DNA of 64,000 nucleotides from assembly GCA_963703225.1 (NCBI GenBank), contig OY969801.1:804001-868000 (forward strand), read 5' to 3'. This document shows positions 7,799 to 60,886 of the stretch, in pieces. Source of the DNA: Candidatus Eiseniibacteriota bacterium (GTDB lineage Bacteria > Eisenbacteria > RBG-16-71-46 > SZUA-252). A program made the position numbers and the translations under genes. Under the pieces are notes generated by a model that had not been told where the DNA came from, made no database searches, and saw nothing but the letters and a program-made list of their open reading frames with translations. The stretch's first letter is position 1, and each line of letters opens with the position of its first letter.

Positions 7799-8227
7799 AT
7801 GAGCCAGAGATACCTGAGCAGCGGCGAGCTTGCCCGCGAGTCGGGCGTGAATTTGGAGACCCTCCGCTACTACGAGCGGCGGGATCTTCTGCCCCGGGTT
7901 GCGCGGACGGCAAGCGGACACCGGCGCTACGACCCTGAAGCGGTCTCACTCCTGAGGCTGATCAAGCGAGCCAAGGACCTCGGATTCACTCTCGCCGAGA
8001 TTCGGGGGCTGCTTCGAGGGCTCGAGCGTCCCAAAGCGGTCTGCGATGACGTCTGCCGGGTGATCGAAGCGAAAATCGGCCATTTGGATCAGGAGCTCAC
8101 GCGATTGAGGTCCCAGCGCGTACGGCTTTCGCGGTTACGGGATGACTGTCCGCGGACGCGGCCGTTGCGGGAGTGCCCGGTCGTCGTCGAGCTCAAGGGC
8201 GCCACACCAAGAAGGAGGAAACGATGA
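7799..8227 (+). CDS. MerR family metal-responsive transcriptional regulator (Cys82, Cys117, Cys126 present)
   Basis: 142 aa; N-terminal HTH (LSSGELARESGVNLETLRYYERRDLL), dimerisation helix, cysteines at 82, 86, 117, 126 by direct counting; matches positions of Hg-binding cysteines in Tn501 MerR (established knowledge). Confidence 0.8.
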   Translation: MSQRYLSSGELARESGVNLETLRYYERRDLLPRVARTASGHRRYDPEAVSLLRLIKRAKDLGFTLAEIRGLLRGLERPKAVCDDVCRVIEAKIGHLDQELTRLRSQRVRLSRLRDDCPRTRPLRECPVVVELKGATPRRRKR

Positions 8228-10580: not shown

Positions 10581-10844
10581 CCGCCAGGGTCCCCGGCTTC
10601 GTTCTGCACGGCGCATCGCAATTCGCTCAAGTTTTCGCCGCATTTGCCGATCCATTGTTCAAGCAATCCCCGCCGATTCCATCCGTTAACTCCCCGCAAA
10701 ACAACGACTTAATCCGATCCTGCCCGCATGGCTCGAAACGGGCACGAGCATTGCCCTCTCCTTGGCTCAGGAGTGGCCGGAAGGGGCGCGTCCAGGGGGA
10801 CACGCGATCCGGCCCAAACGGGGAGCACAGGGAGGGATACCGAG

Positions 10845-11000
10845 ATGACCCGCGTCAAGACCCGCAGCAGGAAGGGAAGCCGCTCCCGTCGCGCGAGCGA
10901 CGACCGCACGGTGGCCGTCGAGGAGATCCGGAACCGCCGCTACATCGCGTTCGTGCGCGCCATCGTCGGCGCCGCTCGGGTTCGCAATTCGTCTCGCTAG
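10845..11000 (+). CDS. small basic hypothetical protein (51 aa)
   Basis: ATG at 10845 preceded by AGGGAGGG RBS; MTRVKTRSRKGSRSRRASDD...; sits in a 435-bp gap between queA and fliN; function unknown. Confidence 0.25.
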   Translation: MTRVKTRSRKGSRSRRASDDRTVAVEEIRNRRYIAFVRAIVGAARVRNSSR

Positions 11001-11015: not shown

Positions 11016-11327
11016 GTGTCGCGCTTACTCACACCAGAAGAGATCAAAGCCCTGCTCGCCGTTGACGAGCCCTGCGTCCCGGCGCCGCGGGAGCGGTTTC
11101 GCATCGTCGTCGACGCGGGTCACGCCGACTTGACGCCCGAGGATGTCGCGGGCCTCAAGCCGGGCTCGACGATCCCGCTCAACCGAAAGTCGGGCGAGCC
11201 TGTCGAGATCGTGGCCAACGCCGTCACCGTCGCACGAGGAGAGCTAGTGGAGATCGGCGGCAGGATCGCCGTGCGCGTCCTGTCCATGGAGAACCCGCCG
11301 GATCGGGCAGGGAGGTGCCAGTCATGA
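11016..11327 (+). CDS. fliN: flagellar motor switch protein FliN-like (SpoA domain)
   Basis: 103 aa; GTG start after GGGGGAGAGGG; SpoA core GSTIPLNRKSGEPVEIVANAVTVARGELVEIGGRIAVRV. Confidence 0.7.
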   Translation: MSRLLTPEEIKALLAVDEPCVPAPRERFRIVVDAGHADLTPEDVAGLKPGSTIPLNRKSGEPVEIVANAVTVARGELVEIGGRIAVRVLSMENPPDRAGRCQS

Positions 11328-11677
11328 ACCCGACCTTCGTCTACACCGTCGCGATCGCGGTCGCGGCCGTCACCATTTACGGCGTCCTGCGCGCGTGGTC
11401 GCGCCGGGAGGAAGCGGAGAGCGAATCCTCCGACGAGGCGCCTCCGGAGATCCGCGTCCTCACCCGCTCGCGCATGGGGCGTGGACGCACGCTCGTCGTC
11501 GTGGAGGTGGAGGGGCGTCGACTCCTGCTCGGGTCGACCCGCTCGGAGTGGTGCGCCCTCGCCGATCTCGGCACGGGGCCGGCCAAGCCGTCGGACGATC
11601 CCTTTGCCCCATTCGATGCCGAGCTGACGCGCGCCATGCACGCGACGCGGTACCGGAAGGGATGGAAGCACTCGTGA
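11324..11677 (+). CDS. fliO: flagellar biosynthesis protein FliO-like
   Basis: ATG at 11324 overlaps fliN stop (ATGA), GGAGG upstream; single N-terminal TM helix then LVVVEVEGRRLLLG motif. Confidence 0.55.
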   Translation: MNPTFVYTVAIAVAAVTIYGVLRAWSRREEAESESSDEAPPEIRVLTRSRMGRGRTLVVVEVEGRRLLLGSTRSEWCALADLGTGPAKPSDDPFAPFDAELTRAMHATRYRKGWKHS

Positions 11678-11832
11678 TCCTGGCCCGCGCTCACGCGCTC
11701 GGGGAACCGAGCAGAAGTTGGGCGCCGCGGGTGCCGGACACGCGGAATTGGCCGCGCCAGAACGCGCGGCGCTGCTCCAAGTAGCGTCGAAGGTGCTCTT
11801 TAGATCGCGGCATACGCCTTGCTCTATCCGCC

Positions 11833-12840
11833 ATGTCCACCACGACGATTACCGGACCTGAGCATCCAGCTCCGAGGAACGAAGGAATGAGCGACATCAC
11901 CGGGAAAATCGAAGGGAAGGCAAAGCCAAGCGCTTCCGCCGGGCGAAGCCGGAACAAGGCCGGGAAACCGGCCCGGCCCCGGAGAGCCGCAAGAGCGGCG
12001 TTCGCCCCACCTCCGTCGCGCCCCCGCCGCCGCGTCATCGCGGTGACCAGCGGAAAGGGCGGCGTGGGCAAGACGAACATCGTGACCAACCTGGCCATCG
12101 CGCTCGCACGCCAGGGAATCCGCGTCCTGATTCTGGACGGGGATCTCGGATTGGCCAACGTCGATCTGCTCCTGGGCGTCGCGCCGCAATTCGACCTTCA
12201 GGACGTGATCTTGGGAAACCGGAGCATCCGCGACATCGTTCTCGAGGGGCCCGACGGCATCCGCGTCATTCCCGCCTCGAGCGGCGTCGAGGAGCTGGCG
12301 AACCTGGACGAGTATCGCACCGAAGTGCTCCTTCGCTCCCTCGCGGAGCTGGAGCACGAGACCGACATCATCTTGATCGACTCGCCCTCCGGCATCGGCC
12401 AGCACGCCACGTCGCTCATCCAGGGAGCCGACCGGATCCTCGTCGTGACCACGCCCGAGCCCACTTCCTTCTCCGATGCCTACGCCATGATCAAGGTCCT
12501 CGTGAAGCGGCCGCTTCGCGCCACGCCGGCCCTGCTCGTGAACCAGGCTGACTCCGAAGACGCCGCGCTCGCCGTCGCGCGCCGCGTGAAGGGCGTCGCC
12601 AAGCGCTTCTTGAACCTCGATATCGATTACTGGGGCTACGTCCTCGCGGACGAGTCGGTGCCCAAGTCGGTTCTCCGCCAGGAGCCGTTCCTCTCCACCT
12701 ATCCCTACTCGCCCGCGTCGAGCTGCATCTACCAGCTCGCGCGCCGCGTCCTGGGCCAACCCGACCGCTCCGGCTCGGACGACACGACGCCGGGGCCGTT
12801 CGCCCTCGTTACCCGCGACGAAGTGCCGGAGGAGGTCTAG
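11833..12840 (+). CDS. flhG: MinD/ParA-family ATPase, flagellar number regulator FlhG-like
   Basis: Deviant Walker A TSGKGGVGKT, MinD-like core; basic ~65-aa N-terminal extension (start may be later); followed by fliA as in flhF-flhG-fliA arrangements. Confidence 0.7.
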   Translation: MSTTTITGPEHPAPRNEGMSDITGKIEGKAKPSASAGRSRNKAGKPARPRRAARAAFAPPPSRPRRRVIAVTSGKGGVGKTNIVTNLAIALARQGIRVLILDGDLGLANVDLLLGVAPQFDLQDVILGNRSIRDIVLEGPDGIRVIPASSGVEELANLDEYRTEVLLRSLAELEHETDIILIDSPSGIGQHATSLIQGADRILVVTTPEPTSFSDAYAMIKVLVKRPLRATPALLVNQADSEDAALAVARRVKGVAKRFLNLDIDYWGYVLADESVPKSVLRQEPFLSTYPYSPASSCIYQLARRVLGQPDRSGSDDTTPGPFALVTRDEVPEEV

Positions 12841-12842
12841 GG

Positions 12843-13088
12843 ATGCGGCGCCTCATCATCCGCCTCACCGCCATCACCTCGCTCGCGGCCGCGCTCCTCG
12901 CCGGCGGGATCGGCGTCGTGACAGGGATTTCCTGGCCCGTCGTCGTCCTTCGCTCCGCCCTCGCGCTCGTCATCGTCGTCCTGGTTGGCGGGGGAACGGG
13001 TTTGATTCTCATGAGAACCGCGTTGCGCCGCTACTACGAGCAGCGGCGCGTCACCTCCGGCGACCGGCAGGTCCGGGCCGACCGGTAG
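12843..13088 (+). CDS. small membrane protein (two predicted TM helices)
   Basis: 81 aa; GGAGGAGG RBS; ATG 2 nt after flhG stop; hydrophobic segments LTAITSLAAALLAGGIGVV and ALALVIVVLVGGGTGLIL. Confidence 0.4.
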   Translation: MRRLIIRLTAITSLAAALLAGGIGVVTGISWPVVVLRSALALVIVVLVGGGTGLILMRTALRRYYEQRRVTSGDRQVRADR

Positions 13089-13106
13089 CGCCCGAGGAAC
13101 CCCACC

Positions 13107-13877
13107 ATGGCCTCCATGTCCGTACTGCACACGCTCGCCAATCGACCCCCGCGCTCGAGGAGCAGGAAAGAGCGCCAAAAGGAGGTCGCGCTCAGCAAGT
13201 ACGCGCCGCTGGTCAAGTACGTCGTCGACCGGCTGGCGCTCCACCTACCGAAATCGGTCGAGCGGGACGACCTGATCTCCGCCGCGATCATCGGGCTCTT
13301 CGACGCGCTGGAGAAGTACGACGCGTCCAAGGGCACCAAGTTCGAGACCTACGCCATCTGGCGGATCCGGGGCGCCATCCTGGACGAGCTTCGCTCCCTC
13401 GACTGGGCGTCGCGGTCGATACGACGGAAGGCCCGGAACGTGGAGGAGGTCGCGAGGGATCTGGGCCAGAGACTGGGGCGCGCCGCGACCGAGGAAGAGG
13501 TGGCCGAGGCGCTCAACCTGAGCCCGGTCGAGCTATCGCGGCTCCTCGACGAGGTGCACGGGACCGCGCTCCTCTCCCTATCCAAGTCGGTTTCGAGCGA
13601 CGAGGAGCAGGACTTCATCCAGCTCGAGGACATCGTCGACGACCCCGCGCATCGGGACGCGCTCGATCAGATCGAGACCGAAGAGGCGCGCGAGGTGCTG
13701 CTCGAGACGATCGACGGGCTGCCGGAGCAGCAGCGGCTGGTGGTGGCGCTCTACTACTACGAAGAGATGACGCTGAAGGAGATCGGCGAGGCGCTCCACA
13801 TCTCCGAATCGCGCGTCTCGCAGATCCACACCCGCGCCGTGAAGACCTTGAAGGCCCGTCTGGGCCGCGTTCTCTAG
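13107..13877 (+). CDS. fliA: RNA polymerase sigma factor FliA/WhiG (sigma-28)
   Basis: 256 aa; sigma-70 region 2 (KFETYAIWRIRGAILDELR), region 4 HTH (MTLKEIGEALHISESRVSQIH). Confidence 0.85.
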   Translation: MASMSVLHTLANRPPRSRSRKERQKEVALSKYAPLVKYVVDRLALHLPKSVERDDLISAAIIGLFDALEKYDASKGTKFETYAIWRIRGAILDELRSLDWASRSIRRKARNVEEVARDLGQRLGRAATEEEVAEALNLSPVELSRLLDEVHGTALLSLSKSVSSDEEQDFIQLEDIVDDPAHRDALDQIETEEAREVLLETIDGLPEQQRLVVALYYYEEMTLKEIGEALHISESRVSQIHTRAVKTLKARLGRVL

Positions 13878-13883
13878 CGATCC

Positions 13884-14769
13884 ATGACCAAGACCATCGA
13901 CGCCACCTCCCTGAAGCGCGTCACCGAGGGGATGGTCGCGCTTCCGACCCTCCCGCTCGTCGCCTACCGCGTCATCGAGGCGGTGGCGCAGCCCGAGACC
14001 AGCTCCGAGGAAGTGGCCCGGATCCTCGCCCTCGACCCCTCGCTCACCGCGCGCACGCTTCGCCTGGCCAACTCCGATTTCTACGGGTTCCCGCGGAAGG
14101 TGGGGAGCGTCGATTTGGCGGTCGTCGTCCTGGGATCGAACACCCTCCGCGACCTCGTCTTGAGCGCGTCCGTATTCAAGACCCTCGGCGAGAGCGACGA
14201 GGAGATGGAAGGGCTCTGGAACCACTCGCTCGCGTGCGGCGTGGCCGCGCGGTCCCTCGCCGACCGGTGCGGCTACCGGTTGAGCAGCGAGGCCTACGCG
14301 GCGGGGCTGCTTCACGACATTGGAAAGGTTGTACTGCGCCAGACCGACCCCGAGCGCTTTCGGGCGGTGGTCGCGATGGTGCGGGAGCAGGGGGAGGCGA
14401 TGGAGGACGCGGAGCGAGGCCTGTTCGGCTCGAGCCACGCCGAGGTTGGCGCGTGGCTCGCCGAGCGGTGGGGACTTCCCGCCGACCTCGTGGAAGCAAT
14501 CGCCTGCCATCACCGGCCGGAGGCCGCGACACGGAACGAGGAGCTCGCGGCGCTGGTACACGTCGCCAATTCCCTCACGGAGCGGGCGGGGCTTTCGTGG
14601 CCCAACGGGGTCGATGACGCGCCCCATCTCGCCCTCGACGTGGGAGCTGGTGGAGGCCGACGAGCGGCGTCGAGAGACGCTTCTGGAAGAGCTCGTCGAG
14701 GACGTGGTCCGCGAGACCGAGCGGGAGCGAACGCTCTTCGCCGAATTCCGCGGCCCACAGGAGGATTGA
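13884..14769 (+). CDS. HDOD domain signalling protein; frame disrupted near 14585-14645
   Basis: HDOD motifs (ILALDPSLTARTLRLANSDFYG, GLLHDIGKVVL, ACHHRPE); C-terminal 40 aa (WELVEADERRRETLLEELV...) lie in the +1 frame ending at 14769 just before next start. Confidence 0.65.
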
Positions 14770-14773
14770 GTTC

Positions 14774-15139
14774 ATGGGCGTCGCCGCAACCAAGTCCGCG
14801 CACGATCGCGCGATCGAGATCCGGGTCCGTTTCGAGCCCGGCCTGGGAGCGTCTCTCTACGCGTCGCTCCAGGACGGCGAGGTGAGCCCGGTCACGGTCG
14901 CGAAGACGCTGGGGCGCGGCCGCGCGATCTTGCGCTACCACGGCTACACGCTGATGGCGCATGGCGCACCGGACTGGAAGGTCGGGGACACGTTCTCCGT
15001 GTTCGTGAAGGAAATGGGACCGCCGCTGGTGCTGGCGCCGGTGGGCCCAGGGAGCCAGGGAGGGAAGCCGGTCGCCACGGTCGAAACGGCGGTGGTGCCA
15101 GGAGTTGTCGATCGTCCCGGGAACGGCATCCGGCCCTGA
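14774..15139 (+). CDS. hypothetical protein
   Basis: 121 aa; ATG 5 nt after upstream stop; no recognised motif. Confidence 0.4.
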   Translation: MGVAATKSAHDRAIEIRVRFEPGLGASLYASLQDGEVSPVTVAKTLGRGRAILRYHGYTLMAHGAPDWKVGDTFSVFVKEMGPPLVLAPVGPGSQGGKPVATVETAVVPGVVDRPGNGIRP

Positions 15140-15164: not shown

Positions 15165-16412
15165 ATGAAGCAGCGCAATGGAGCAGGCTCGAAGCGGCTG
15201 GTGGAGGCGACCGAACGATTCATCCGTTCGGAGCAGAAGCTACTCGAGGTGTTGGGCGATCGTCGCATCCTCAAGAAGGCCGAGTGCGAGCACTTCGCGA
15301 AGGATCTGTCCCTCTCCGCCGCGAAAAAGCGGTCGTCGGACGTCTTCGCGAGCGCGGTCTCGATCAACCGCAAGCTGATGGGCATTCTCTCCAAGTCCCG
15401 CAATGCGGGGGCGCGCCCCGTCTCCGACTCGGACGTGCTCGCCGAGCTGGGCCGGATCACGCAATCAACCGTCGATCCGGTCGAGGCGTTCCGCGAGGCG
15501 CTCCTCCAGATCAGAACCGCGATCCCATTCGAGAATTCCACCCTCTTCCTCCTGAACCGCGAGTCCCAGGTCCTGGAGGAGGTGGTCTCGATCGGCAGCC
15601 GGGTCGATCTCATCGGCCACGTCCGCTTCGACCGCGGCAGGGGCTTCTCCTCGTGGGTGGCCCAGCAGCGAAAGCCGGTCCTTCTGAACGACCTCCATCG
15701 CGAAGGGGGCCCCGATTCGGTCTGCCTGCGCTCCTTCCTCTCGGTGCCGATCCTGGTCCAGACCGAGGTGGTGGGGGTCGTCAACATGAGCCACTCGCGC
15801 CCAGGCGCCTTTGACGAGGAGAGCGCGAACCGGTTGGCGTTGATGGCCATGCCGATCTCGGCGGTCGCGATCCGGATGCTGCTCCGCCGCGAGCGGGAGC
15901 GGCTCACCACGACCGACGACGTCACGACCCTCTACAACAAGCGCCACTTTGACCGGAATCTCGAGGCGGAGGTCGGCAAGGCGAAGCGCTACGGCCACAA
16001 GGTGTCGGTGGTCGTGCTCGATGTCGACGGCACGCTGGAGCGGAAGGGTCGACACGGGCAGGGGATCGGGGACCAGGTTCTCTCGGACATGGGACGGCTC
16101 CTCAAGCGCTCGGCCCGCGGAACCGACTGCGTCGCGCGCTACCAGGGGGACGAATTCCGGATCCTCCTTCCGCACACCGACGCCGCGAGGGCCAAGGTGG
16201 CGGCGGAGCGTCTCCGCGGGGTCGTGGAGCGGCACGCCTTCCCGCGACGGAAGAAGCTGACCGTTCACGTCGGCGTCGCGACCTATCCGGTCGAGGCCGT
16301 CGATCCGAGCACCATCGTCCCGCAGGTCGAGCCGGAGGCCGCCGTGGTGGCGGGCAAGGCGGACGGGCCGGTTCCGCCTCCGGACGACCGGAACGGCGCG
16401 GCCGTCAACTAG
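15165..16412 (+). CDS. GAF domain-containing diguanylate cyclase (GGDEF)
   Basis: ATG at 15165 after AAGGAGGAAGG; GAF-like region then GGDEF-family motifs (TTLYNKRHF, RYQGDEFRILLPHTD active-site variant GDEF). Confidence 0.8.
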   Translation: MKQRNGAGSKRLVEATERFIRSEQKLLEVLGDRRILKKAECEHFAKDLSLSAAKKRSSDVFASAVSINRKLMGILSKSRNAGARPVSDSDVLAELGRITQSTVDPVEAFREALLQIRTAIPFENSTLFLLNRESQVLEEVVSIGSRVDLIGHVRFDRGRGFSSWVAQQRKPVLLNDLHREGGPDSVCLRSFLSVPILVQTEVVGVVNMSHSRPGAFDEESANRLALMAMPISAVAIRMLLRRERERLTTTDDVTTLYNKRHFDRNLEAEVGKAKRYGHKVSVVVLDVDGTLERKGRHGQGIGDQVLSDMGRLLKRSARGTDCVARYQGDEFRILLPHTDAARAKVAAERLRGVVERHAFPRRKKLTVHVGVATYPVEAVDPSTIVPQVEPEAAVVAGKADGPVPPPDDRNGAAVN

Positions 16413-16430: not shown

Positions 16431-18151
16431 ATGGAACAGAAGACTCAAACCACCGAGCCGACGCCGAGCACGGCCGCCCACCCACGGGCGCGGGTCCTGG
16501 TCGTGGACGATGAGGTCCAGGTCGTCCAGATCTTCCAGGATCTCCTGACCCAGCAGGGATACGTGGTCGAGTCGTGCGACAACGGCGACGACGCGATCCT
16601 CAAGGTGACCAAGGGGAAGTTCGACCTCGTCCTCACCGACATCAACCTGCCCGGCGTGGATGGCCTGGAGGTGATCCGGGCGGCCAAGGCCGCGGACAAG
16701 GACACCTGCGTCATCCTGATCACCGGCTACGCTTCCACCACCACCGCGATCGACGCGCTCCGCCAGGGCGCCTACGACTACATCACCAAGCCGTTCGATC
16801 TCTGGGAAACGCTCAAGGCGATCGAGCGGGGGCTGGAAAGCCGCCTGCTCACGCAGGAGAACCGGCGGCTGATCGGCGAGCTGGAGTCGGCCAACGTCGG
16901 GCTCCAGCAGCACGAGGATGATTCTCCGCCGCAAGGTGGCCCGCGCCACCGACCGGATGGCGGCGCTCCTGGAAGCGGGGAAGGCGATCTCGACCAGCCT
17001 GAGCCTCCAGAGCACGCTCGAGGTGGTGGTGGCGCAGGCCGCGCGGCTCGCCTCGGCGCGCGCCTGCCTCCTCTTCCTCCACGACGCCGCGTCGGACGAA
17101 TACGCCGCCGAGGCGGCCCTGGGCGTGCCCGAGGAGAGCCTCAAGCTGCTCCGGTTCCAGATGGGGATCGGCTATCACGGCCAGGTGGTCCAGAGCGCCC
17201 AGCCCGCGCTGGTGGAGAACCTGGGCGAGGCCGTTGGCACCGAGGAGATGCTCGCTTCGCTCAAGCCAACCGGCGCGCTGATCGTCCCCCTCCAAGGGAA
17301 CGAGAGCGTGATCGGGACGATCACCTGCCTCGACCACGACGGTGGCGCCTTCAGCACGGACGACCAGGACGTGCTCAAGATGCTCGCCAGCCAGGCCACG
17401 ATCGCGATCACCAACGCGATCCTCTTCGAGCGGACCAAGGAGCTGGACCGGCTCAAGTCGGAGTTCGTCGCGGTCGTGTCGCACGAGGTGCGGACGCCGC
17501 TCACCTCGATCAAAGGCTCGCTCGAGCTTCTGGGGGACGACCGCTTCCACAAGCTGCCCCCGCCGCAGAAGGAGCTGCTCAGCATCTGCCAGGCGAACAC
17601 CGAGCGGCTGATCAACCTGATCAACGACATTCTCGACTTCTCCAAGCTCGAGTCGTCCAAGCTCTCGCTCAACATCGAGGCGATCGACGCCGGCGCGGTC
17701 CTGATCGAGGCGGTCGAGAACATCCGAAACCTCGCGGCCCAGAAGGAAGTCGGGATCGACCTGAAGGTGGATCCCAGCACCGGCAACGATCGAGGCCGAC
17801 CCGATGCGCATCGGCCAGGTCGCCACCAACCTCCTCGGGAACGCGATCAAGTTCTCGCCCGAGCGGAGCCGCATCGAGATCTTCGCCTCCGGAGACGAGG
17901 GCCAGATCACGATCTCGGTGAAAGACTACGGCCGGGGCATTTCGCAGCGCGACTTGAGCCGCCTCTTCCAGCGCTTCGCCCAGCTCGATTCCTCCACCAC
18001 CCGGAAGGCCGGCGGAACGGGGCTGGGCCTGGTCATCTCCAAGGGGATCGTCGAGCAGCACGGCGGCAAGATCTGGGTCGAGTCGGCCGTCGGCGAGGGC
18101 TCCACGTTCTCCTTCTCGCTCCCCCGGCGGCGGGTGGAAGCGGCCGCGTAG
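16431..18151 (+). CDS. hybrid response regulator-GAF-histidine kinase; two frame disruptions (near 16905-16925 and 17780-17795)
   Basis: REC domain (VLVVDDE...DLVLTDINLPGVDG...ITKPF), GAF, HisKA (VSHEVRTPLTSI), HATPase_c (GNAIKFSP...GGTGLGLVISKGIV...GEGSTFSF) spread over three reading frames without intervening stops in each segment. Confidence 0.7.
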
Positions 18152-18217
18152 CCGCACCTCTCTCCAAGACCACTTCCCGCTTGGGCGCCGGGCCGGGCGC
18201 CGCTAGTATCCACCCGC

Positions 18218-19343
18218 GTGAGCCCACCCGATCGTCCTCGTAAGACCGTTCTCTCCGTTTTCGGCACCCGGCCGGAAGCCATCAAGATGGCGCCGGTCCT
18301 GAAGCTCCTCTCGCGCGAGGCGGGGATCCGTTCTCTCGTCTGCGTCACCGCGCAGCACCGCGAGATGCTCGACCAGGTGCTCTCGCTCTTCGAGATCCGC
18401 CCCGACCACGACCTCGACCTGATGCGGGAGGGGCAGACCCTCACCGAGATCACCACCCGCGCGCTGACGGAGCTGGCGCCCTATCTGGAGCGGGAGAGAC
18501 CCGACTTTCTCCTGGTCCAGGGGGACACCACGACCACGATGGCCGCCTCCCTGGCGGCGTTCTACGCGCGGGTGCCGGTGGGGCACATCGAGGCGGGGCT
18601 TCGGACGGGAGACAAGTCGTATCCCTACCCCGAAGAGGTGAACCGGCGGGTCACGACCGTGATCGCGGCGCACCACTTCGCGCCGACCGAGAAGGCGCGG
18701 CGAAATCTGCTCGCGGAGGGGATCTCGGACGCGGAGATCACCGTCACGGGCAACACCGTGATCGACGCGCTGCTCGAAGTGGTGAAGATCAAGCCCGAGC
18801 GCCTGCCGCAGCTCCCGCTGCGCGGGACAGCGGATCCTCCTCGTGACGGCCCACCGGCGCGAAAACTTTGGCGCGCCGCTTCAGGAAATCCTCGCCGCGC
18901 TCCGCGACCTGGTCACCCGCTACGCGGACGTCGACGTGGTCTACCCGGTGCACCGAAACCCGAATGTGGACGGCCCGGTGCGGGTCGCGCTCTCGAACGT
19001 TCCGGGCATTCACCTCATCGACCCGCTCGAGTACAAGGCCTTCGCCGATTTGATGGCCGCCTCCTATCTGATTCTCACCGACTCCGGCGGGATCCAGGAA
19101 GAAGCGCCCTCGCTGGGGAAGCCGGTCCTGGTGCTGCGCGACGAGACCGAGCGGCCGGAGGCGGTGGAGGCGGGCGTCGTCCAGCTGGTCGGCCCGCACC
19201 GCGAGAAGATCGTCGCGGCGGCCGTGGAGCTTCTGGACAACCCCAAGCGCTACGCCGCCATGGCGAACCGGATGAACCCCTACGGGGACGGGAAAGCGGC
19301 GGCGCGGATCCTCTCCAAGGTGCGAAAGCTGGTCGGGCCGTAA
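18218..19343 (+). CDS. wecB: UDP-N-acetylglucosamine 2-epimerase (non-hydrolysing); frame disrupted near 18815-18835
   Basis: N-terminal [14 protein letters not shown], central [14 protein letters not shown] and C-terminal [20 protein letters not shown] motifs in two frames. Confidence 0.75.
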
Positions 19344-25951: not shown

Positions 25952-28945
25952 TTACGAGGACGGTTTCGAGAGGCGCTGGATTCCCGCCAGTGCCTCTTCG
26001 TTTGCCTTCACGCCGGGCTCGGCCATTCTGTACTGGTAGGCGACCCGCTTGTAGAGGGCCAGCGCCTCGTCGCGGCGGCCGCGCTCTTCGTAGAGGCGGG
26101 CCAGCGTGTTCATCGCCTTGTAGGTATCGATAGGGTCCCCGCTGCCGGGGGCACTCTTGACGATGGCAACCAACTCGGTCTCCGCGCCAGCCATGTCGCC
26201 CGCGGCGATCAGGGCGCGGGCAAGCGCCCACCTGCGTTTCCATTGCCGGAATCCGGGCTGCGTTGCCGGGAGGTTCTCCCGGAACACCTTCACGGCTTCC
26301 GCCGCGTGCCCCTTCGCGAGGGCGAGCTGACCGCCAAGAAACCTCAGATTCTGGCGCTCGAGAGGCGTCGCGCCTTTCTCCAGCTGCCGCTCGTAGCCTC
26401 GGAGCATCGCCTGAGCGGACTCCAGCTTTCCCGTGCGGATCAATGCTTCCATGAGGTGGAGAGAGCTTGCTCCGCGGACCACCAAGATCCTGTTGTTCTG
26501 AGCGGCCTGGACTCGAAACTTCTGCACAGCCTCTTCCGCCCTTCCCATCTCGAGGAGCGCTTGGGCGTGGAAGCGCGTCACCAGTGTTTGATCTGGTCTC
26601 GTGTAGTGGCCGCCCAACTTCCGCTCAAAGCTCGCGGCCATGCGCGCCGCCTCGGAGAACCGGCCCTGGCTGAGTCTCAGGAAGACTTCGCCGGGAGCCG
26701 TGTCGAGCGGCTTTCCGTCATAGCCGGGGATCCCCGCGACCACGTCGATCGTGGCGCGGAGCGAATCGAAGTCGCCCATCGTTCCCTGGGCCCCGGCGAG
26801 GCCGAACAGGGCAGCGAGGTATCTCGGGTCCCTCGCGAGCGCTTCATGATAGGCGGCGAGCCCTCCCTCCAGGTCGCCACTTTGCAGAAGCACTTCCCCT
26901 TTCATCGAGTAGCCGACCGGGTTGTCCGGTTCGGCCCGAATGAGGCGCTCGATGCTTGTAAGCGCGCGATCGTACTCACCCCGATCTCCCAGGACGTCCG
27001 TTATGTGGGTGTACGCGACCACGAACGAGGGATCGATCTCGGTGGCCCGTCCGAGCGCGCTGAGACCCATGTCGTCCATGCCGCCGTGGTAGAGGGCCTC
27101 CCCCAGGCCGTAGAGGAACTCCTTATCGTCGGGGTATCGAACGAGCAGGGCCCGGTACTGGCGTGCCGCGCCCGCGTAGTCCTTCTGGATCACGGCCCCG
27201 AGCGCCATCAACCCATCGCGGTCGCGGCGCGACAGGCGGTCTCCGAGGCGGAGCCCGGTTTGCACTTCCTGCTGAGCGCCGTCGACGTCGGAATTCCACC
27301 ATGTGGCGACAGCCGCGTAATACCACGCGAGGGCGAAGGTGGAATCCGCCGCGATCGCCGCGCGGAATTCCCGTTCCGCATCGGCCCATTTGCTCTTGTA
27401 GAGTTCGTCGAGCCCGTGCACGTAGGCCCTGTAGGCCATTGGGCTCTGGGTCGTGAGGCTCGCCACGTCGACCGCCGACTGGCGGACTCCGAACCCCGCG
27501 CGGGCGAGGCCGTCCCGCAACGACGCGGTGAGCGAGTCGACGGCCGCGAAGAGGCCGCGTTCACCTCCCGCGGTCCGCACCTTGCTGGCCGTGAGCACGG
27601 TGCCGTCGGATGTGGAGGCCACTTCGGCCGCGAGGACGATGTCCGGCTGGGTCGCGTAGATGTACCCGGTCACCACGTAGGCGGCGCCGGCCCGTCCGGC
27701 CACCTCCAGCGCCTCCTTGCCCTTCACGGTCTCGTTCGGCTTTCCCATTTGGCGGAGCACGTCGTGGATCCGTTGGGCGCTCACGACCGGCATCACCTGG
27801 GACTCGCTCAACCCCACGTTTAGAAGGCTGGTCGCGATCGGAGCGGCACCGTGTGGATCGCCCGGCTCCGCCAGGTTCTCGAACGACAGAACCGCGATCG
27901 ACTTCTGGGCCGCCTCTGCCGCGGGTGGCTCGGGCTTGAGGCTGGGACGGTACGGGCCCAGGAGGTAGACCAACGCCGCGACCAGAACAATCGCGACCGG
28001 AACGACGATGCGCCGGGGGAGGCGACGTCTACCGGGAGATCCCGACGTCGGGGCGCTGCTCGTGATGGTCTCGGTGGCGTTCCGCGGACGGCGCCGGCCA
28101 CGCCCGTGAGCGTGGCGGTCCCCGGCGCCGCGGACGCGGCCAGGCGCCTTCAAGTCCGCCGCCAAGTCGTCCGCGTGCTGATACCGGAGCGCCGGATCCT
28201 TCTTCATGCACTTGAGGACGATCCGCTCCAGCTCGAGCGGGATTCCGCTTCGAAGCGCCGAGGGCGCCTCCGGCTCATGATGCTGGACCGCGTAGAGCGA
28301 AGCCTCCGGGCGGTCGCCGGCGAAGGCTCGCGTACCCCGGTCAGCGCCTCGTAGAGCACCGCACCCAGCGAGAAGAGGTCGCTCCTCCCATCCAGCGGCG
28401 TCCCGCGCGCCTGCTCCGGGCTCATGTACGCCACCGTGCCCGGCGTGAATCCCTCGGCGGTGAGGTGGGTCGCGCCTTCGAGGTGCGCGATTCCAAAGTC
28501 GGTCAGCTTGGCGTCGCCCTCGGGGGTGACCAGGATGTTGGCCGGCTTGACGTCCCGGTGGACGACTCCCTTCGCGTGCGCGTGGGCGAGGGCCCCCGCG
28601 ATCGAGATTCCGGTCGCGATGACTTCAGGGATGGGAAGAGGGCGATGGGCGATCCTCGCGGCGAGGGTCTCCCCCTCGACGTACTCCATGACGAGGCAGG
28701 AGCGCACGCCGTCGCTCTCGAGCGCGTGGACCGCGGCGATGTTCGGGTGGGAGAGCGACGCGAGCGATCGTGGCTTCCCGGCGCAGGCGCTCCTGTGCCT
28801 CGGGGTCGCCGGCGGCGGCCTGGGGCAGGAACTTGAGCGCGACGCGCCGGCCCAGGCGCTCGTCTTCCGCGAGGAAGACCTCGCCCATGCCGCCCTGGCC
28901 CAAGGGCCCCAGAATCCGGTAGTGGAGGAAGCGCTCCGCCCCCAT
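25952..28945 (-). CDS. Ser/Thr protein kinase with TM segment and C-terminal TPR repeats; at least two frame disruptions (near 28700-28720 and 28210-28340)
   Basis: Kinase subdomains [39 protein letters not shown] across three frames; long TPR-like C-terminal region. Confidence 0.7.
25954..25998. repeat. 45-bp hairpin-forming repeat, copy 2 (overlaps the last codons of the Ser/Thr kinase gene)
   Basis: 40/45 identity with 23092-23136; stem AGAGGCGCTGG / CCAGTGCCTCT (one G-U). Confidence 0.5.
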
Positions 28946-31630: not shown

Positions 31631-32568
31631 CGGGACGCCGTCCCGGGCGCCCTTGGTGGGACATCGCCGCAAACCTGAGCCGACTCCCGCAGCTTGCCAT
31701 TGTTGGGATCGCGGGCGCGGTGCTCGCGTATGCCGCATCGAAGTTGGTACCTGCTGACTACGAATGCCAGTCGGCCCTCCTGCTGGACTCAGGCACGACG
31801 CTCTCTGGCCTCGGGAACGTCGCAAGTCTCGTAAACATGGTTCAACCGACTCTGCTCGGCGTGTCCGGTGAGGGCCAGCGCGCCTACAGCTATATCGCCG
31901 TTGCGCAAAGCCGGACCATTCTGGAGCGGATTCTCCAGAGCTCCACCCCTGAGGGCAATGGTGCCAGGCTCTTCTTCGAAGATTTCGCTCCCACCTCGGG
32001 CAGCCCGGCACGAAGAATGGAGACGGCAGTCTCCCGTCTCCGGGGCCACGTCCGCGGGAACTATTCCTCTAAGACATTCATTCTCACGATCACGGTCGGC
32101 GATAGGCACCCCGGGCACTCCAAGGCCATCACTGAAAATCTCATTCGCTACCTTCGGGAATTCAACTCAGCGACCCGAGTGTCTCGTGCGCGAGAGGCAC
32201 GGGAGTTCATCGCACAAAGGACCCTCGATGCAGGTGATTCATTGGCCGAGGCGGAGAGCCGCCTCGTCGAATTTAGGCGGGAAAATGTTCGAATTGGCGG
32301 GTCCCCTACGTTGCAATTGACCGAGACAAGGCTAACGAGGCGCGTTCGCATTTGCGAGGATGCATACTCACTCCTGTCCCAACAACTCGAAATCGCCAGA
32401 ATTGAAGAGAAACGAGAGGCGCCCACCTTCTCAGTCGTCGACAGTCCTCAGGAATCCAGTCGGCCCAGGCGAGTGCCGGGCCCGCTGGCTCTAGTGCTGG
32501 GCGGCGTCTGCTCCGTTGGCATACTATTGTTGGCCTCGGCAGTTAGGCAGGCGTTGCGTGGCGATTAG
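31627..32568 (+). CDS. polysaccharide chain-length determinant (Wzz/PCP-like) protein
   Basis: 313 aa; GTG overlaps upstream stop; N- and C-terminal TM helices flanking a periplasmic helical region. Confidence 0.6.
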   Translation: MTGRRPGRPWWDIAANLSRLPQLAIVGIAGAVLAYAASKLVPADYECQSALLLDSGTTLSGLGNVASLVNMVQPTLLGVSGEGQRAYSYIAVAQSRTILERILQSSTPEGNGARLFFEDFAPTSGSPARRMETAVSRLRGHVRGNYSSKTFILTITVGDRHPGHSKAITENLIRYLREFNSATRVSRAREAREFIAQRTLDAGDSLAEAESRLVEFRRENVRIGGSPTLQLTETRLTRRVRICEDAYSLLSQQLEIARIEEKREAPTFSVVDSPQESSRPRRVPGPLALVLGGVCSVGILLLASAVRQALRGD

Positions 32569-34012: not shown

Positions 34013-34014
34013 CC

Positions 34015-37932: not shown

Positions 37933-37933
37933 C

Positions 37934-43351: not shown

Positions 43352-43380
43352 TCCGTCAGGGATTGGCGGGGGGTGGTGGG

Positions 43381-44472: not shown

Positions 44473-44491
44473 CGCCGATTGAGAACCATCA

Positions 44492-47410: not shown

Positions 47411-47453
47411 GGTTGTTGCGACTGGGTCGAGGCAAACGGAGGAGGGAAGCGCG

Positions 47454-47915
47454 ATGAAATGGGTAACGAGAGAGAACGTGCAGGTGGATCGAGTGGCATG
47501 CCCGTGGCTGATCAAGAAGTTCGTAGATCCGAAGGCTGAATTCCTGTTCGTGCCGGCGGACCAGGTCATGGCCGTGGCGGAGCGCGAGAAGGCGATCCCG
47601 TACGATGTGAAGGGCGTCGAGCTAGGCCATCATGGGAAGGAGTGCTCGTTCGATGCGATCGTCAAGAAGCACGGCCTGACGTCCGACCCGGCGCTGGTGC
47701 TGCTGGCCCGGATCGTGAACGGAGCCGACACGGACAACACGCTCTGGAACCAGCCAGAATCGGCCGGGCTGAGGGCGGTCGCCAAGGGCTTTCGCGGTCT
47801 TGGCTTCAAGAACGACCACGAGCTGAACGCCGCCGAATGGATCGTCTACGACGCGCTCTACGCCTACTGCGGGAAGATGGTGGAGGAGGGGAAGCTGGAG
47901 GGCGCGGCGAGGTGA
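47454..47915 (+). CDS. ChrB C-terminal domain protein (chromate-resistance-like)
   Basis: 153 aa; GGAGGAGGGAAG RBS; WVTRENVQVDRVACPWLIKKFVDPKAEF parallel to ChrB C-domain. Confidence 0.6.
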   Translation: MKWVTRENVQVDRVACPWLIKKFVDPKAEFLFVPADQVMAVAEREKAIPYDVKGVELGHHGKECSFDAIVKKHGLTSDPALVLLARIVNGADTDNTLWNQPESAGLRAVAKGFRGLGFKNDHELNAAEWIVYDALYAYCGKMVEEGKLEGAAR

Positions 47916-60718: not shown

Positions 60719-60886
60719 GAGAGAGTATCCGAAGGTGTGGCCGCGAGGCCACAGGGTGCCGCTGGGACCGCGGCGCCTTTGCGGCCGGCCGCCGCTAACT
60801 CATTTGTTTTCAGCGATCTTTCCGGTGGCACGACGGCTGCTTTGTGGGTGACTGCCCAGTGCCACACTCAGCACCCGGAGGGAGTC

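What the first reader, a model, noticed from the sequence alone, without database searches (positions are those of the whole stretch)
11016..13877. Partial flagellar cluster: fliN-fliO joined directly to flhG-fliA with export-apparatus genes missing
fliN and fliO normally precede fliP-fliQ-fliR-flhB-flhA-flhF, and flhG-fliA normally follow flhF. Here only 155 bp separate fliO from flhG, with no trace of the intervening genes. This could mark a deletion or rearrangement, a split flagellar regulon, or repurposed FliN/FlhG-like proteins. An extra small membrane protein sits between flhG and fliA.
Basis: partly seen in the sequence, partly recalled or inferred. Interest (0 to 1): 0.5.

Follow-up and report, generated by a model that had tools for sequence, protein, structure and literature searches.

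The report
Flagellar operon remnant kept without flagella
A soil bacterium of the candidate phylum Eisenbacteria keeps only a few regulatory and accessory genes of an ancestral flagellar operon, with their promoters nearly unchanged across the clade, although published gene tables show most genomes of the phylum lack every core flagellar gene, so these "flagellar" genes probably now do another job.

Summary
The window carries fliN-like, fliO-like, flhG-like and fliA genes, plus a small membrane-protein gene, in one tight string with no export-gate genes.

- **Not a local accident.** The order queA – 51-aa ORF – FliN' – FliO' – FlhG' – 2TM protein – FliA' – HDOD recurs in about 10 long contigs. 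In 80 metagenome contigs, FlhG' follows FliO' in 52/52 testable cases, and none has a FliP/Q/R, FlhB/A or FlhF match.
- **Canonical comparison.** In 43 outgroup species, fliN lies 6.2-8.1 kb upstream of flhG, with fliO-fliPQR-flhBA-flhF between them. Here the distance is about 0.6 kb.
- **The "extra" membrane protein** is a FlgV homologue, which is normal at that position.
- **Flagella in the phylum.** A published KEGG table shows fliA in 15 of 16 Eisenbacteria genomes, but core flagellar genes in only 3.
- **Signs of function.** The genes are under purifying selection. One sigma-28 and two sigma-54 promoter motifs are almost invariant. FlhG' has lost the FlhF-activating motif and the membrane-targeting helix, and its closest solved relative is FleN.

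Best reading: a contracted flagellar operon retained as a regulatory module. I could not check that this particular genome lacks flagella, and the module's output is unknown.

The parts
10595..10626 (+). Conserved block (GGCTTCGTTCTGCACG-N5-TCGCAATTCGC) just upstream of the sigma-28 -35 element. It lies about 115-145 bp upstream of the first sigma-54 promoter and could be a regulator or enhancer-binding-protein site.
   Evidence: Almost invariant in 8 lineages within otherwise divergent intergenic DNA. Coordinates. The function is inferred.
10627..10653 (+). Sigma-28 (FliA)-type promoter: TCAAGTTT-N11-GCCGATCC. The classical consensus, TAAAGTTT-N11-GCCGATAA, is from my own knowledge.
   Evidence: It is the only zero-mismatch hit of CAAGTTT-N11-GCCGAT in the 64-kb window. 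It occupies the same position in 8/8 long loci. It is exact in 37/38 metagenome loci, whereas the best shuffled control has at least 4 mismatches.
10740..10754 (+). Sigma-54-type -24/-12 promoter, GGGCACGAGCATTGC. The consensus TGGCACG-N4-TTGCW is from my own knowledge.
   Evidence: GGCACG-N4-TTGC is exact in 37/38 metagenome loci; shuffled controls have at least 2 mismatches.
10845..11000 (+). Conserved small ORF (51 aa) with a basic N-terminus and an invariant C-terminal RRYLAFVRAIV motif. A GGAGGG ribosome-binding site lies at 10831. It is the first gene downstream of the sigma-28 and sigma-54 promoters. Function unknown.
   Evidence: Called as a 50-55 aa gene in every related contig. Alignment. 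No Pfam hit. Selection is weak and variable, dN/dS 0.11-1.15.
11016..11327 (+). FliN': an N-terminal EIDAL-like peptide (MSRLLTPEEIkAL), a linker, and a SpoA (FliN C-terminal) domain.
   Evidence: Pfam FliMN_C, E=3.8e-17. The profile's best solved match is FliM::FliN 4yxb (4e-12), then T. maritima FliN, then YscQ. Foldseek's top hits are FliN. The N-terminal peptide is the most conserved stretch across 36 orthologues. It is kept even where 29 aa of the SpoA domain are deleted.
11324..11677 (+). FliO': one N-terminal transmembrane helix plus the FliO cytoplasmic domain. The longest ORF starts at 11315, but the conserved ATG is at 11324 and overlaps the fliN' stop.
   Evidence: Pfam FliO, 32.9 bits against a cut-off of 22. 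Its HMM finds the ORFs immediately downstream of fliN in canonical clusters; one of these is Pfam FliO at 5e-14. dN/dS is 0.19-0.56.
11713..11754 (+). Two conserved motifs (AGAAGTTGGGCG and GGAATTGGCCG) about 55-95 bp upstream of the second sigma-54-like promoter. They are candidate activator sites.
   Evidence: Conserved columns in the 8-lineage alignment of the fliO'-flhG' spacer. Coordinates. The function is inferred.
11808..11822 (+). Second sigma-54-type promoter (CGGCATACGCCTTGC), in front of flhG'-flgV'-fliA'.
   Evidence: Conserved in 8/8 long loci. GGCA-N6-TTGC is exact in 66/66 metagenome spacers.
11887..12840 (+). FlhG': an ATPase of the FleN/FlhG branch of the MinD family. It has a basic, proline-rich N-terminal extension and a conserved acidic C-terminus (RDEVPEEV). 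It has no DQAxxLR helix and no amphipathic membrane-targeting helix.
   Evidence: alignment. Against solved structures the profile scores 224 bits for FleN 5j1j, 175 for G. thermodenitrificans FlhG and 114 for MinD. Motif survey. dN/dS is 0.08-0.39.
12843..13088 (+). FlgV': an 81-aa protein with two transmembrane helices, an invariant Arg at the start of TM2 (VLRS) and a polar cytoplasmic tail (LMRTALRRYYE).
   Evidence: An HMM built from 9 outgroup 2TM ORFs lying between flhG and fliA ranks all 8 orthologues as the top 8 of 1300 ORFs (E 5e-5 to 0.02; the next hit is 0.18). The reciprocal search finds the same positional ORFs. Family description in PMC10802407.
13107..13877 (+). FliA': a sigma-28 (FliA/WhiG family) sigma factor. 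It is the most conserved gene of the module.
   Evidence: TIGR02479, 262.9 bits against a cut-off of 189.6. Sigma70 regions 2, 3 and 4 are present. It is 83-95% identical across lineages. dN/dS is 0.02-0.16.
13884..14885 (+). HDOD-domain protein. The window copy appears frameshifted near 14.62 kb; intact orthologues are about 294 aa and would end near 14768.
   Evidence: Pfam HDOD, E=8e-64. Orthologue lengths. Split tblastn segments. In one outgroup locus (L042), HDOD also directly follows fliA.
14774..15139 (+). Conserved 121-aa protein (u121), predicted to be a small beta-barrel. It is weakly homologous to the N-terminal domain of FliK-like proteins found downstream of fliA in outgroup clusters.
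15165..16412 (+). GAF-GGDEF protein whose GGDEF signature is degenerate and varies between lineages. In this window it reads QGDEF.
   Evidence: Domains. The signatures seen are QGDEF, SGEEF, GCDEF, SGDEF, GAGEF, GDEEF and SSEEF.
16431..18151 (+). Hybrid REC-GAF-HisKA-HATPase sensor kinase. It is split over three reading frames in the window but intact (570-612 aa) in relatives.
   Evidence: ORFs. Intact orthologues with their domains.

Best explanation
This is a contracted flagellar superoperon, retained as a regulatory module in a clade of Candidatus Eisenbacteria that has largely lost the flagellum.

**Origin (inferred by parsimony).** The ancestor had the canonical string fliN-fliO-fliP-fliQ-fliR-flhB-flhA-flhF-flhG-flgV-fliA. 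The 6-8 kb fliP-to-flhF segment was removed. The remaining genes were kept: a 51-aa ORF, EIDAL-SpoA FliN', FliO', FleN-like FlhG', FlgV', sigma-28 FliA', and then HDOD, a FliK-N-like protein, a degenerate GGDEF protein and a hybrid kinase.

**Shown.**
- The homologies of the genes.
- The clade-wide gene order.
- Purifying selection on every gene.
- Near-invariant sigma-28 and sigma-54 promoter motifs.
- The loss of FlhG's FlhF-activating motif and membrane-targeting helix.

**Inferred.**
- A sigma-54 activator encoded elsewhere switches on flhG'-flgV'-fliA' and the downstream signalling genes.
- FliA' then fires the sigma-28 promoter in front of the 51-aa ORF, fliN' and fliO'. No terminator was found, so it may read through into its own gene and form a positive loop.
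- FlhG' acts like FleN, as an ATP-dependent brake on the sigma-54 activator. It is tethered or titrated through the EIDAL-like peptide of FliN' and the membrane proteins FliO' and FlgV'.
- The real output is a FliA' regulon of non-flagellar genes elsewhere in the genome. That regulon is unknown.
For: **Gene identities:**

**Canonical order verified in outgroup locus L036.** Pfam identifies FliO, FliP, FliQ, FliR, FlhB, FlhA, an SRP-type GTPase (FlhF) and the FliA sigma domains. A FlgV-like ORF with no Pfam family lies between flhG and fliA.

**Spacing.** fliN lies 6179-8080 bp upstream of flhG in 43 outgroup loci, against 551-643 bp in Eisenbacteria loci.

**Identical synteny** in the long contigs L001-L007, L087-L092. 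In 80 metagenome loci:
- FlhG' adjacent in 52/52.
- FliA' in 29/29.
- queA in 25/25.
- Export genes in 0/80.

**Selection (dN/dS):**
- FliA 0.02-0.16.
- FlhG 0.08-0.39.
- FliO 0.19-0.56.
- FliN 0.29-0.54.
- FlgV 0.19-0.61.

**Promoters.** The sigma-28 motif is exact in 37/38 loci, sigma-54 in 37/38 and the second sigma-54-like motif in 66/66. No sigma-70-like promoter and no plus-strand terminator was found between 10.4 and 18.6 kb.

**FlhG' features.**
- 0/8 orthologues carry DQAxxLR, against 40/76 outgroups by a strict pattern.
- The C-terminus is acidic rather than amphipathic.
- Both features are described as hallmarks of FlhG in PMC12826062.
- The closest solved relative is the antiactivator FleN.

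**EIDAL peptide.** It is reported as the FlhG- and CheY-P-binding site (bioRxiv 10.1101/2022.04.21.489128). The EIDAL-like peptide of FliN' is its most conserved part.

**Flagella in the phylum.** PMC13271369 Table S4 lists fliA in 15/16 Eisenbacteria genomes. fliE/F/G/H/I/P/Q and flhA/B occur only in GCA_013003415.1, GCA_013140805.1 and GCA_016235265.1.
Against: - **This genome not checked.** Only 64 kb of a roughly 3.1-Mb genome could be read, so the absence of flagellar genes here is extrapolated from other members of the phylum.
- **No link to the published table.** None of my loci could be tied to an assembly in that table.
- **Incomplete genomes.** The table is based on metagenome-assembled genomes of varying completeness.
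- **Flagellated members.** Three Eisenbacteria genomes are flagellated, and two of them have two fliA copies. The module could therefore be a paralogue or part of a split regulon in some lineages.
- **No regulon found.** No second sigma-28 site occurs in the window.
- **No activator found.** No sigma-54 activator gene was seen in the window.
- **FliO' unexplained.** Why a FliP-assembly factor would be kept without FliP is not explained.
- **Relaxed constraint.** FliN' has lost half its SpoA domain in one subclade (L002, L088), which points to relaxed constraint on the fold.
- **Untested interactions.** The proposed protein-protein contacts rest on analogy only.
Confidence: 0.62

Rival explanations
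1. Split flagellar regulon. The organism is flagellated, and fliPQR, flhBA, flhF and the structural genes were simply moved to other loci. This cluster would then be an ordinary lineage-specific arrangement of working flagellar genes.
For: - Flagellated Eisenbacteria exist: 3 of the 16 genomes in PMC13271369 Table S4.
- The module keeps sigma-54 and sigma-28 promoters typical of flagellar hierarchies.
- A secondary citation describes an Eisenbacteria genome as motile.
- The rest of this genome could not be read.
Against: - 12 of the 15 fliA-bearing genomes lack every core flagellar gene that was scored. One of them, GCA_005893305.1, still scores FliN and FliA.
- FlhG' has lost the FlhF-activating motif and the membrane-targeting helix in 8/8 lineages.
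- FliO' is never next to fliP (0/80).
- One subclade has a half-deleted SpoA domain in FliN', which is hard to reconcile with a working C-ring.
Confidence: 0.2
2. Paralogous module. The contracted cluster arose as a duplicate that already had a separate, non-flagellar role alongside a complete flagellar operon, and it survived when the flagellum was lost. On this view it is not the scar of a deletion in the only flagellar locus.
For: - Two flagellated genomes (GCA_013003415.1, GCA_013140805.1) carry two fliA copies.
- FlhG' and FliA' are only 39-48% and 32-51% identical to any outgroup copy. The genome scan recovered nothing between 48% and 72% for FlhG'.
Against: - The gene order matches the two ends of the canonical string exactly, which a simple internal deletion explains most economically.
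- The genome scan was cut at 600 rows, so the identity gap may be a sampling artefact.
- No locus was seen with both forms.
Confidence: 0.13
3. A decaying relic. The genes are functionless leftovers on their way to being lost.
For: - FliN', FliO' and FlgV' evolve much faster than FliA' (35-69% against 83-95% identity).
- FliN' is truncated in one subclade.
- The GGDEF signature is degenerate.
- dN/dS of the 51-aa ORF approaches 1 in distant pairs.
Against: - The reading frames are intact in every lineage examined, at synonymous divergences of 0.5-1.9.
- dN/dS is below 0.6 for all named genes.
- Promoter motifs are invariant in dozens of contigs.
- Overlapping start and stop codons are retained.
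Confidence: 0.04
4. Assembly or sequencing artefact. On this view a mis-join or collapsed region in this long-read assembly removed the intervening genes.
For: The window shows several apparent frameshifts: the HDOD C-terminus, the hybrid kinase and the epimerase.
Against: The same junction, with the same conserved spacer motifs, is present in independent assemblies from NCBI, ENA, JGI and Logan.
Confidence: 0.01

Closest known systems
Canonical flagellar superoperon segment fliN-fliO-fliPQR-flhB-flhA-flhF-flhG-flgV-fliA, as in the Nitrospirota, Desulfobacterota, Bacillota, Planctomycetota and Spirochaetota loci L008-L086
   Same: The genes are homologous and in the same order and orientation at both ends. 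A FlgV-type 2TM protein sits between flhG and fliA. In some outgroups, HDOD and a FliK-like gene lie downstream of fliA.
   Different: The whole export-gate and FlhF block is absent, so fliN-to-flhG is about 0.6 kb instead of 6.2-8.1 kb. FlhG lacks DQAxxLR and the membrane-targeting helix. Per the published KEGG table, the surrounding genome mostly has no flagellar structural genes.
Pseudomonas FleQ-FleN-FliA circuit (FleN is a MinD-like antiactivator of a sigma-54 enhancer-binding protein)
   Same: FlhG' is closest to FleN among solved structures, at 224 bits. flhG' and the upstream operon carry sigma-54 promoters, and fliA follows flhG. That FleN restrains FleQ is from my own knowledge; the PDB entry name and the title of PMC13556257 agree with it.
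   Different: No FleQ-like activator was found in the window. There is no flhF and no flagellar target genes. FlhG' has a basic N-terminal extension and an acidic C-terminal tail that FleN lacks. The interaction is untested.
FlgV family (B. burgdorferi BB0268, H. pylori HP1033, C. jejuni FlgV)
   Same: It has two transmembrane helices, a conserved Arg in TM2, a polar cytoplasmic tail, and a position between flhG and fliA.
   Different: PMC10802407 states that all members lie in flagellar superoperons "without exceptions". Here the superoperon is reduced to regulators, and the host clade is mostly aflagellate. The sequence match is weak (E 5e-5 to 0.02).
Orphan flagellar genes and sigma-28 in aflagellate bacteria: Chlamydia (FliI, FlhA, FliF plus sigma-28) and Streptomyces (WhiG with RsiG and c-di-GMP). 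From my own knowledge.
   Same: A FliA/WhiG-family sigma factor is retained and re-used after loss of the flagellum. It is linked with signalling domains related to c-di-GMP (HDOD, GGDEF).
   Different: The retained set differs: FliN, FliO, FlhG and FlgV, with no T3SS core at all. The GGDEF domain is degenerate. No RsiG-like or FlgM-like anti-sigma factor was identified (flgM 0/16).
Short EIDAL-SpoA FliN and FliY proteins
   Same: The layout is the same: an N-terminal LSQxEIDALL-type peptide followed by a SpoA domain, as in outgroup loci L010, L036 and L062 and in the FliY of Bacillota and Spirochaetota.
   Different: The motif here is LLTPEEIxAL. There is no CheC-like domain. No fliM or fliG partner is detected in most genomes of the phylum. 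The SpoA domain is half-deleted in one subclade.

Membership tests
FliN (flagellar C-ring SpoA protein) | SpoA / FliMN_C domain | tested here: met
   Pfam PF01052, E=3.8e-17. The profile hits solved FliN best: 4yxb 4e-12, 1yab 2e-9. Foldseek's top hits are FliN.
FliN (flagellar C-ring SpoA protein) | Reaches the curated equivalog score (TIGR02480) | tested here: not met
   46.6 bits against a cut-off of 84.05. The SctQ model scores higher (66.2) but is also below its cut-off of 100.8.
FliN (flagellar C-ring SpoA protein) | Partners FliM and FliG, and a C-ring, encoded in the genome | not testable with these tools
   There are none in the 64-kb window. In the published table, fliG and fliM are absent from 13 of 16 Eisenbacteria genomes. 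The rest of this genome cannot be read.
FliO | FliO domain after a single N-terminal transmembrane helix | tested here: met
   Pfam PF04347, 32.9 bits against 22. Reciprocal HMM hits to the ORFs that follow fliN in canonical clusters. It is below the TIGR03500 cut-off, at 32.2 against 55.25.
FliO | Encoded immediately upstream of fliP, the protein it helps assemble | tested here: not met
   flhG' follows in 52/52 contigs. FliP, FliQ and FliR matches occur in 0/80.
FlhG / FleN | MinD-type ATPase with a deviant Walker A motif, closer to FlhG and FleN than to MinD | tested here: met
   KGGVGKT is invariant. Scores against solved structures are FleN 224 bits, FlhG 175 and MinD 114.
FlhG / FleN | N-terminal enhancer helix with DQAxxLR, which stimulates the FlhF GTPase | tested here: not met
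   0/8 Eisenbacteria orthologues against 40/76 outgroups. The feature is defined in PMC12826062.
FlhG / FleN | C-terminal amphipathic membrane-targeting helix | tested here: not met
   The C-terminus is the conserved acidic GPxxLVTRDEVPEEV. Outgroups end in motifs of the G(I/L)xxFFxxL type.
FlhG / FleN | Encoded next to flhF | tested here: not met
   There is no FlhF match in any of the 80 loci or in the window.
FlgV | Two transmembrane helices, a conserved intramembrane Arg in TM2 and a polar cytoplasmic tail | tested here: met
   The alignment shows an invariant R in the VLR(S/A) motif.
FlgV | Sequence similarity to family members | tested here: met
   The match is weak but specific. An HMM of 9 positional outgroup homologues ranks all 8 orthologues first (E 5e-5 to 0.02 among 1300 ORFs). 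The reciprocal hit to L029 has E=6e-6. It was not compared with BB0268 or HP1033 themselves.
FlgV | Located between flhG and fliA inside a flagellar superoperon | tested here: inconclusive
   The position between flhG' and fliA' is met. The superoperon, however, lacks all structural and export genes.
FliA / sigma-28 | Reaches the curated FliA/WhiG subfamily score, with sigma regions 2, 3 and 4 | tested here: met
   TIGR02479, 262.9 bits against 189.6. Pfam regions r2, r3 and r4 are present.
FliA / sigma-28 | Cognate promoter (TAAAGTTT-N11-GCCGATAA type) in front of target genes | tested here: met
   TCAAGTTT-N11-GCCGATCC lies at 10627-10653 and is conserved in 37/38 loci. Only this one target was found.
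FliA / sigma-28 | Controls flagellar late genes and is held by the anti-sigma factor FlgM | not testable with these tools
   flgM is scored 0/16 and fliC is present in 4/16 genomes. The regulon of this genome cannot be scanned.
Pseudogene remnant | Disrupted frames and neutral evolution (dN/dS about 1) | tested here: not met
   Frames are intact in all lineages. dN/dS is 0.02-0.61 for the five named genes.

The most novel reading that the evidence does not exclude
FliN', FliO', FlgV' and FlhG' form a membrane-associated signalling complex that works without any flagellum or type III export gate. It sets the activity of sigma-28 and a sigma-54 activator and so controls a non-motility programme, for example envelope or exopolysaccharide genes. 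If so, these proteins, usually classed as flagellar assembly or structural parts, have a separable regulatory function that outlives the organelle.
Probability: 0.3. Interest if true: 0.75.

Novelty: new variant of a known kind. Interest (0 to 1): 0.55.

Why it matters
- **Roles of poorly understood proteins.** FliO, FlgV, FliN and FlhG would have a role that does not need the flagellum. That would help explain what FliO and FlgV, which are poorly understood, actually do. It would also give a natural minimal system for studying the FlhG/FleN, sigma-54 and sigma-28 control logic.
- **A caution for metagenomics.** Pipelines label these genes "flagellar biosynthesis protein FlhG" and "flagellar motor switch protein FliM/FliN". 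That labelling can lead to motility being inferred for a phylum in which most genomes in the one published table (13 of 16) lack core flagellar genes.
- **A way into an uncultured phylum.** The invariant promoter TCAAGTTT-N11-GCCGAT can be used to find the sigma-28 regulon of an uncultured soil phylum by simple genome scanning.

Tried and rejected
- **Classical sigma-28 pattern.** TAAA-N14-16-GCCGAT found nothing and CCGATAW was not enriched. The real site has TCAAGTTT at -35 and only emerged from intergenic alignments.
- **Exact look-up of the FliA protein:** not on record.
- **RNA genes.** Rfam and tRNA scans of the window found nothing.
- **Genome-collection scan with the FlhG alignment.** I therefore could not sample GTDB Eisenbacteria species or find flagellated members. 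The outgroup loci it returned were still useful.
- **Linking my loci to the published KEGG table.** None of the assemblies matched.
- **Literature on Eisenbacteria motility.** It is sparse. I found only a second-hand statement of motility.
- **The GGDEF protein as an active cyclase feeding a WhiG/RsiG-like switch.** This is weakened because the signature is degenerate and variable.
- **The 51-aa ORF as FlgM.** No similarity was detected.
- **Non-flagellar T3SS remnant.** I considered this because SctQ scores above FliN in NCBIfam. I rejected it because solved FliN ranks first with the family profile, and the neighbours are flagellum-specific (FliO, FlhG, FlgV, FliA).

Full report
**1. What is in the window**

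The window is 65-69% G+C over most of its length. Its FlhG-like protein is 100% identical to P0001, which lies on a 3,123,862-bp contig. Named relatives are nearly all "Candidatus Eisenbacteria/Eiseniibacteriota bacterium".

- FliN' at 11016-11327: Pfam FliMN_C, 3.8e-17.
- FliO' at 11315/11324-11677: Pfam FliO, 32.9 bits against a cut-off of 22.
- FlhG' at 11833/11887-12840: MinD/ParA family.
- An 81-aa two-helix membrane protein at 12843-13088.
- FliA' at 13107-13877: TIGR02479, 262.9 bits against a cut-off of 189.6.

The remaining ORFs scanned in the 64 kb encode housekeeping genes, an exopolysaccharide cluster, polyphosphate enzymes and ChrB. None is a flagellar gene. No rRNA or tRNA gene is present.

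**2. The arrangement is clade-wide**

Exact-protein look-ups of ten FlhG' relatives (69-100% identical) returned contigs from NCBI, ENA and Logan assemblies. Wherever the contig is long enough, it carries the same string: EF-G, peptidase S8, YebC, RuvCAB, queA, a 50-55 aa ORF, FliN', FliO', FlhG', an 81-aa membrane protein, FliA', HDOD, a ~120-aa protein, GAF-GGDEF, a REC-GAF-histidine kinase and an epimerase.

A scan of JGI metagenomes with a FliO' alignment gave 80 further loci. Counting only loci with enough flanking sequence to test each gene:

| Neighbour of FliO' | Loci with it |
|---|---|
| FlhG' within 600 nt downstream | 52/52 |
| FliA' after FlhG' | 29/29 |
| queA upstream | 25/25 |
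| FliN' upstream | 60/67 |
| Any match to FliP, FliQ, FliR, FlhB, FlhA or FlhF | 0/80 |

All seven FliN' exceptions still carry the 51-aa ORF upstream. Three have a FliN' match that falls just outside my adjacency window. The other four have none and may be the truncated type described in section 5.

**3. Comparison with canonical clusters**

The genome-collection scan was cut at 600 rows. It returned 79 outgroup FlhG loci (39-48% identity) and one Eisenbacteria-type locus.

- In 43 outgroup loci, fliN lies 6179-8080 bp upstream of flhG. In the Eisenbacteria loci the distance is 551-643 bp.
- In L036 the intervening genes were confirmed by Pfam as FliO, FliP, FliQ, FliR, FlhB, FlhA and an SRP-type GTPase (FlhF). 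They are followed by FlhG, a 62-aa 2TM ORF and FliA.
- The Eisenbacteria FliO' HMM finds the ORFs that follow fliN in these clusters.

The window therefore holds the two ends of the canonical string with the fliP-to-flhF block missing.

**4. The small membrane protein is FlgV**

PMC10802407 describes FlgV as follows:
- It has two transmembrane helices with a conserved intramembrane Arg in TM2 and a polar tail.
- It is encoded between flhF-flhG and sigma-28.
- It lies "without exceptions" in flagellar superoperons.

The 81-aa protein has this architecture, with an invariant Arg in the VLR(S/A) motif. An HMM built from nine outgroup 2TM ORFs at that position ranks all eight Eisenbacteria orthologues first among 1300 ORFs (E 5e-5 to 0.02; the next hit is 0.18). 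The reverse search finds the same positional ORFs. The protein is expected at this position, not an extra.

**5. How the retained proteins differ from working flagellar ones**

*FlhG'.*
- By profile it is closest to the antiactivator FleN (224 bits), then G. thermodenitrificans FlhG (175) and MinD (114).
- None of eight orthologues has the DQAxxLR enhancer helix that activates FlhF. By a strict pattern, 40 of 76 outgroups have it.
- The C-terminus is a conserved acidic RDEVPEEV, not an amphipathic membrane-targeting helix.
- Both lost features are described as hallmarks of FlhG in PMC12826062.

*FliN'.*
- It has an N-terminal MSRLLTPEEIxAL peptide that resembles the EIDAL motif. This is the most conserved part of the protein across 36 orthologues.
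- The peptide survives in a subclade (L002, L088) where 29 residues of the SpoA domain are deleted.
- The EIDAL motif is reported to be necessary and sufficient for FlhG binding, and it is also the CheY-P site.
- Short EIDAL-SpoA FliN proteins also occur in some outgroups.

*The downstream 121-aa protein.*
- It has no Pfam family, and its AlphaFold2 model has no clear structural match.
- Its HMM aligns to the N-terminal ~80 residues of five outgroup proteins; the four that I scanned carry a C-terminal FliK (Flg_hook) domain (best E 2e-5). This may be another flagellar leftover.

*The GGDEF signature* is degenerate and differs between lineages.

**6. Signs of function**

Pairwise dN/dS (NG86) is below 0.61 for the five named genes and for the 121-aa protein (u121), in seven pairs with dS of 0.45-1.9:

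| Gene | dN/dS |
|---|---|
| FliA' | 0.02-0.16 |
| FlhG' | 0.08-0.39 |
| 121-aa protein (u121) | 0.13-0.42 |
| FliO' | 0.19-0.56 |
| FliN' | 0.29-0.54 |
| FlgV' | 0.19-0.61 |

Alignment of the two intergenic regions revealed three conserved promoter-like motifs:
- TCAAGTTT-N11-GCCGATCC at 10627-10653. The sigma-28 consensus TAAAGTTT-N11-GCCGATAA is from my own knowledge.
- GGGCACGAGCATTGC at 10740-10754. The sigma-54 consensus TGGCACG-N4-TTGCW is from my own knowledge.
- CGGCATACGCCTTGC at 11808-11822, in front of flhG'.

In the metagenome loci these motifs are exact in 37/38, 37/38 and 66/66 cases. The best shuffled controls have at least 4 (sigma-28) and at least 2 (first sigma-54) mismatches; the third motif had no shuffled control. 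No sigma-70-like promoter and no plus-strand terminator was found between 10.4 and 18.6 kb.

**7. Does the lineage have flagella?**

I could not read the rest of this genome. The best available evidence is Table S4 of PMC13271369, which gives KEGG presence or absence in 16 Eisenbacteria reference genomes:
- fliA is present in 15 genomes, and in two copies in three of them.
- fliE, fliF, fliG, fliH, fliI, fliP, fliQ, flhA and flhB are present only in GCA_013003415.1, GCA_013140805.1 and GCA_016235265.1.
- flgM and fliO are scored 0/16.
- fliN is scored in four genomes. One of them, GCA_005893305.1, has fliN and fliA but none of the other flagellar genes visible in the table.

The authors did not comment on this pattern. 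Most of the phylum therefore looks aflagellate yet keeps FliA, and by my loci the whole module. None of my loci could be matched to an assembly in that table.

**8. Interpretation**

The most economical reading is an ancient internal deletion, or an equivalent contraction, of a flagellar superoperon, followed by loss of the other flagellar loci. The regulatory and accessory genes were retained because they control something else.

The promoter layout suggests three steps, all inferred:
- A sigma-54 activator drives flhG'-flgV'-fliA' and the downstream signalling genes.
- FliA' drives the 51-aa ORF, fliN' and fliO', possibly with read-through into its own gene.
- A FleN-like FlhG' provides negative feedback.

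The EIDAL-like peptide of FliN' is a plausible docking site for FlhG' or for a phosphorylated receiver domain. All protein contacts and the output regulon are inferred, not shown.

Three things remain open:
- Whether this genome really lacks flagellar genes.
- Whether flagellated relatives carry both forms.
- Why a FliP chaperone homologue is kept without FliP.

**9. Verdict**

This is a real, conserved and apparently undescribed variant of a known phenomenon, namely flagellar genes that outlive the flagellum. It is of moderate interest. It also bears on how motility is inferred from metagenome annotations.

Noticed in passing
window 13884-14885, 16431-18243, 18843-19343, 28204-28707, 57411-58577: Several genes look frameshifted or truncated compared with intact orthologues. 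These are the HDOD C-terminus, the REC-GAF-kinase (split over three frames), an Epimerase_2 fragment of 166 aa, a protein-kinase fragment, and a polyphosphate kinase with only its C-terminal domains. This pattern suggests indel errors from a long-read assembly rather than true pseudogenes. The five genes of the finding are full length.
   Followed up: partly
window 29764-45853: This is a large exopolysaccharide or capsule cluster. It encodes Wza-like SLBB/Poly_export proteins, Wzy, a Wzx-type flippase, two glycosyltransferases, an asparagine synthase, an oxidoreductase, DUF354 and a sugar transferase. From about 32 kb onward its G+C is clearly lower (0.59-0.64 against ~0.67), so it may be a horizontally acquired island. 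It lies about 12 kb downstream of the module and could be a regulatory target.
   Followed up: partly
window 48846-50423 (-), 59147-60718 (-): Two Wzi-like (Caps_assemb_Wzi) outer-membrane proteins flank a polyphosphate block made of CHAD, a histidine phosphatase, two Ppx/GppA genes and PPK.
   Followed up: no
window 60826-60840 (+): A further close match to the sigma-54 promoter consensus, TGGCACGACGGCTGC, with one mismatch. It lies upstream of an ORF that starts near 61131.
   Followed up: no
window 46451-47410 and 47346-47915: Two overlapping ORFs both carry a ChrB C-terminal domain. This is either a tandem duplicate or another frameshift artefact.
   Followed up: no
L007 (JBLMXB010000057.1); proteins P0129, P0249, P0358: Contigs and proteins carrying this Eisenbacteria-type module are labelled Hyphomicrobiales, Acidobacteriota or Bacteroidota in their source records. 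These are probably mis-binned contigs.
   Followed up: no
L005 17796 (+): A second sigma-28-like site, TCAAGTATTGACTTACAATGGCCGATGA, with a 12-nt spacer and one mismatch. It lies upstream of a 162-aa gene in one groundwater lineage only and is not conserved elsewhere.
   Followed up: no
L002 9213-9416 and L088 9297-9491: In one subclade FliN' is only 64-67 aa. An in-frame loss of about 29 residues removes the first half of the SpoA domain, while the N-terminal LLTxEEIxAL peptide and the last beta-strands are kept.
   Followed up: partly
L042 12128-12880; L015 20453-20719: An HDOD-domain gene lies directly after fliA in a Nitrospirota flagellar cluster (L042), and further downstream in another (L015). 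The fliA-HDOD pairing in the window may therefore be inherited rather than new.
   Followed up: no
window 7799-8227 versus L001 4786-6369: A MerR-type regulator is a separate ORF in the window. In the near-identical contig L001 it is called as a fusion with RuvB (527 aa). This is probably a gene-calling or frameshift difference.
   Followed up: no
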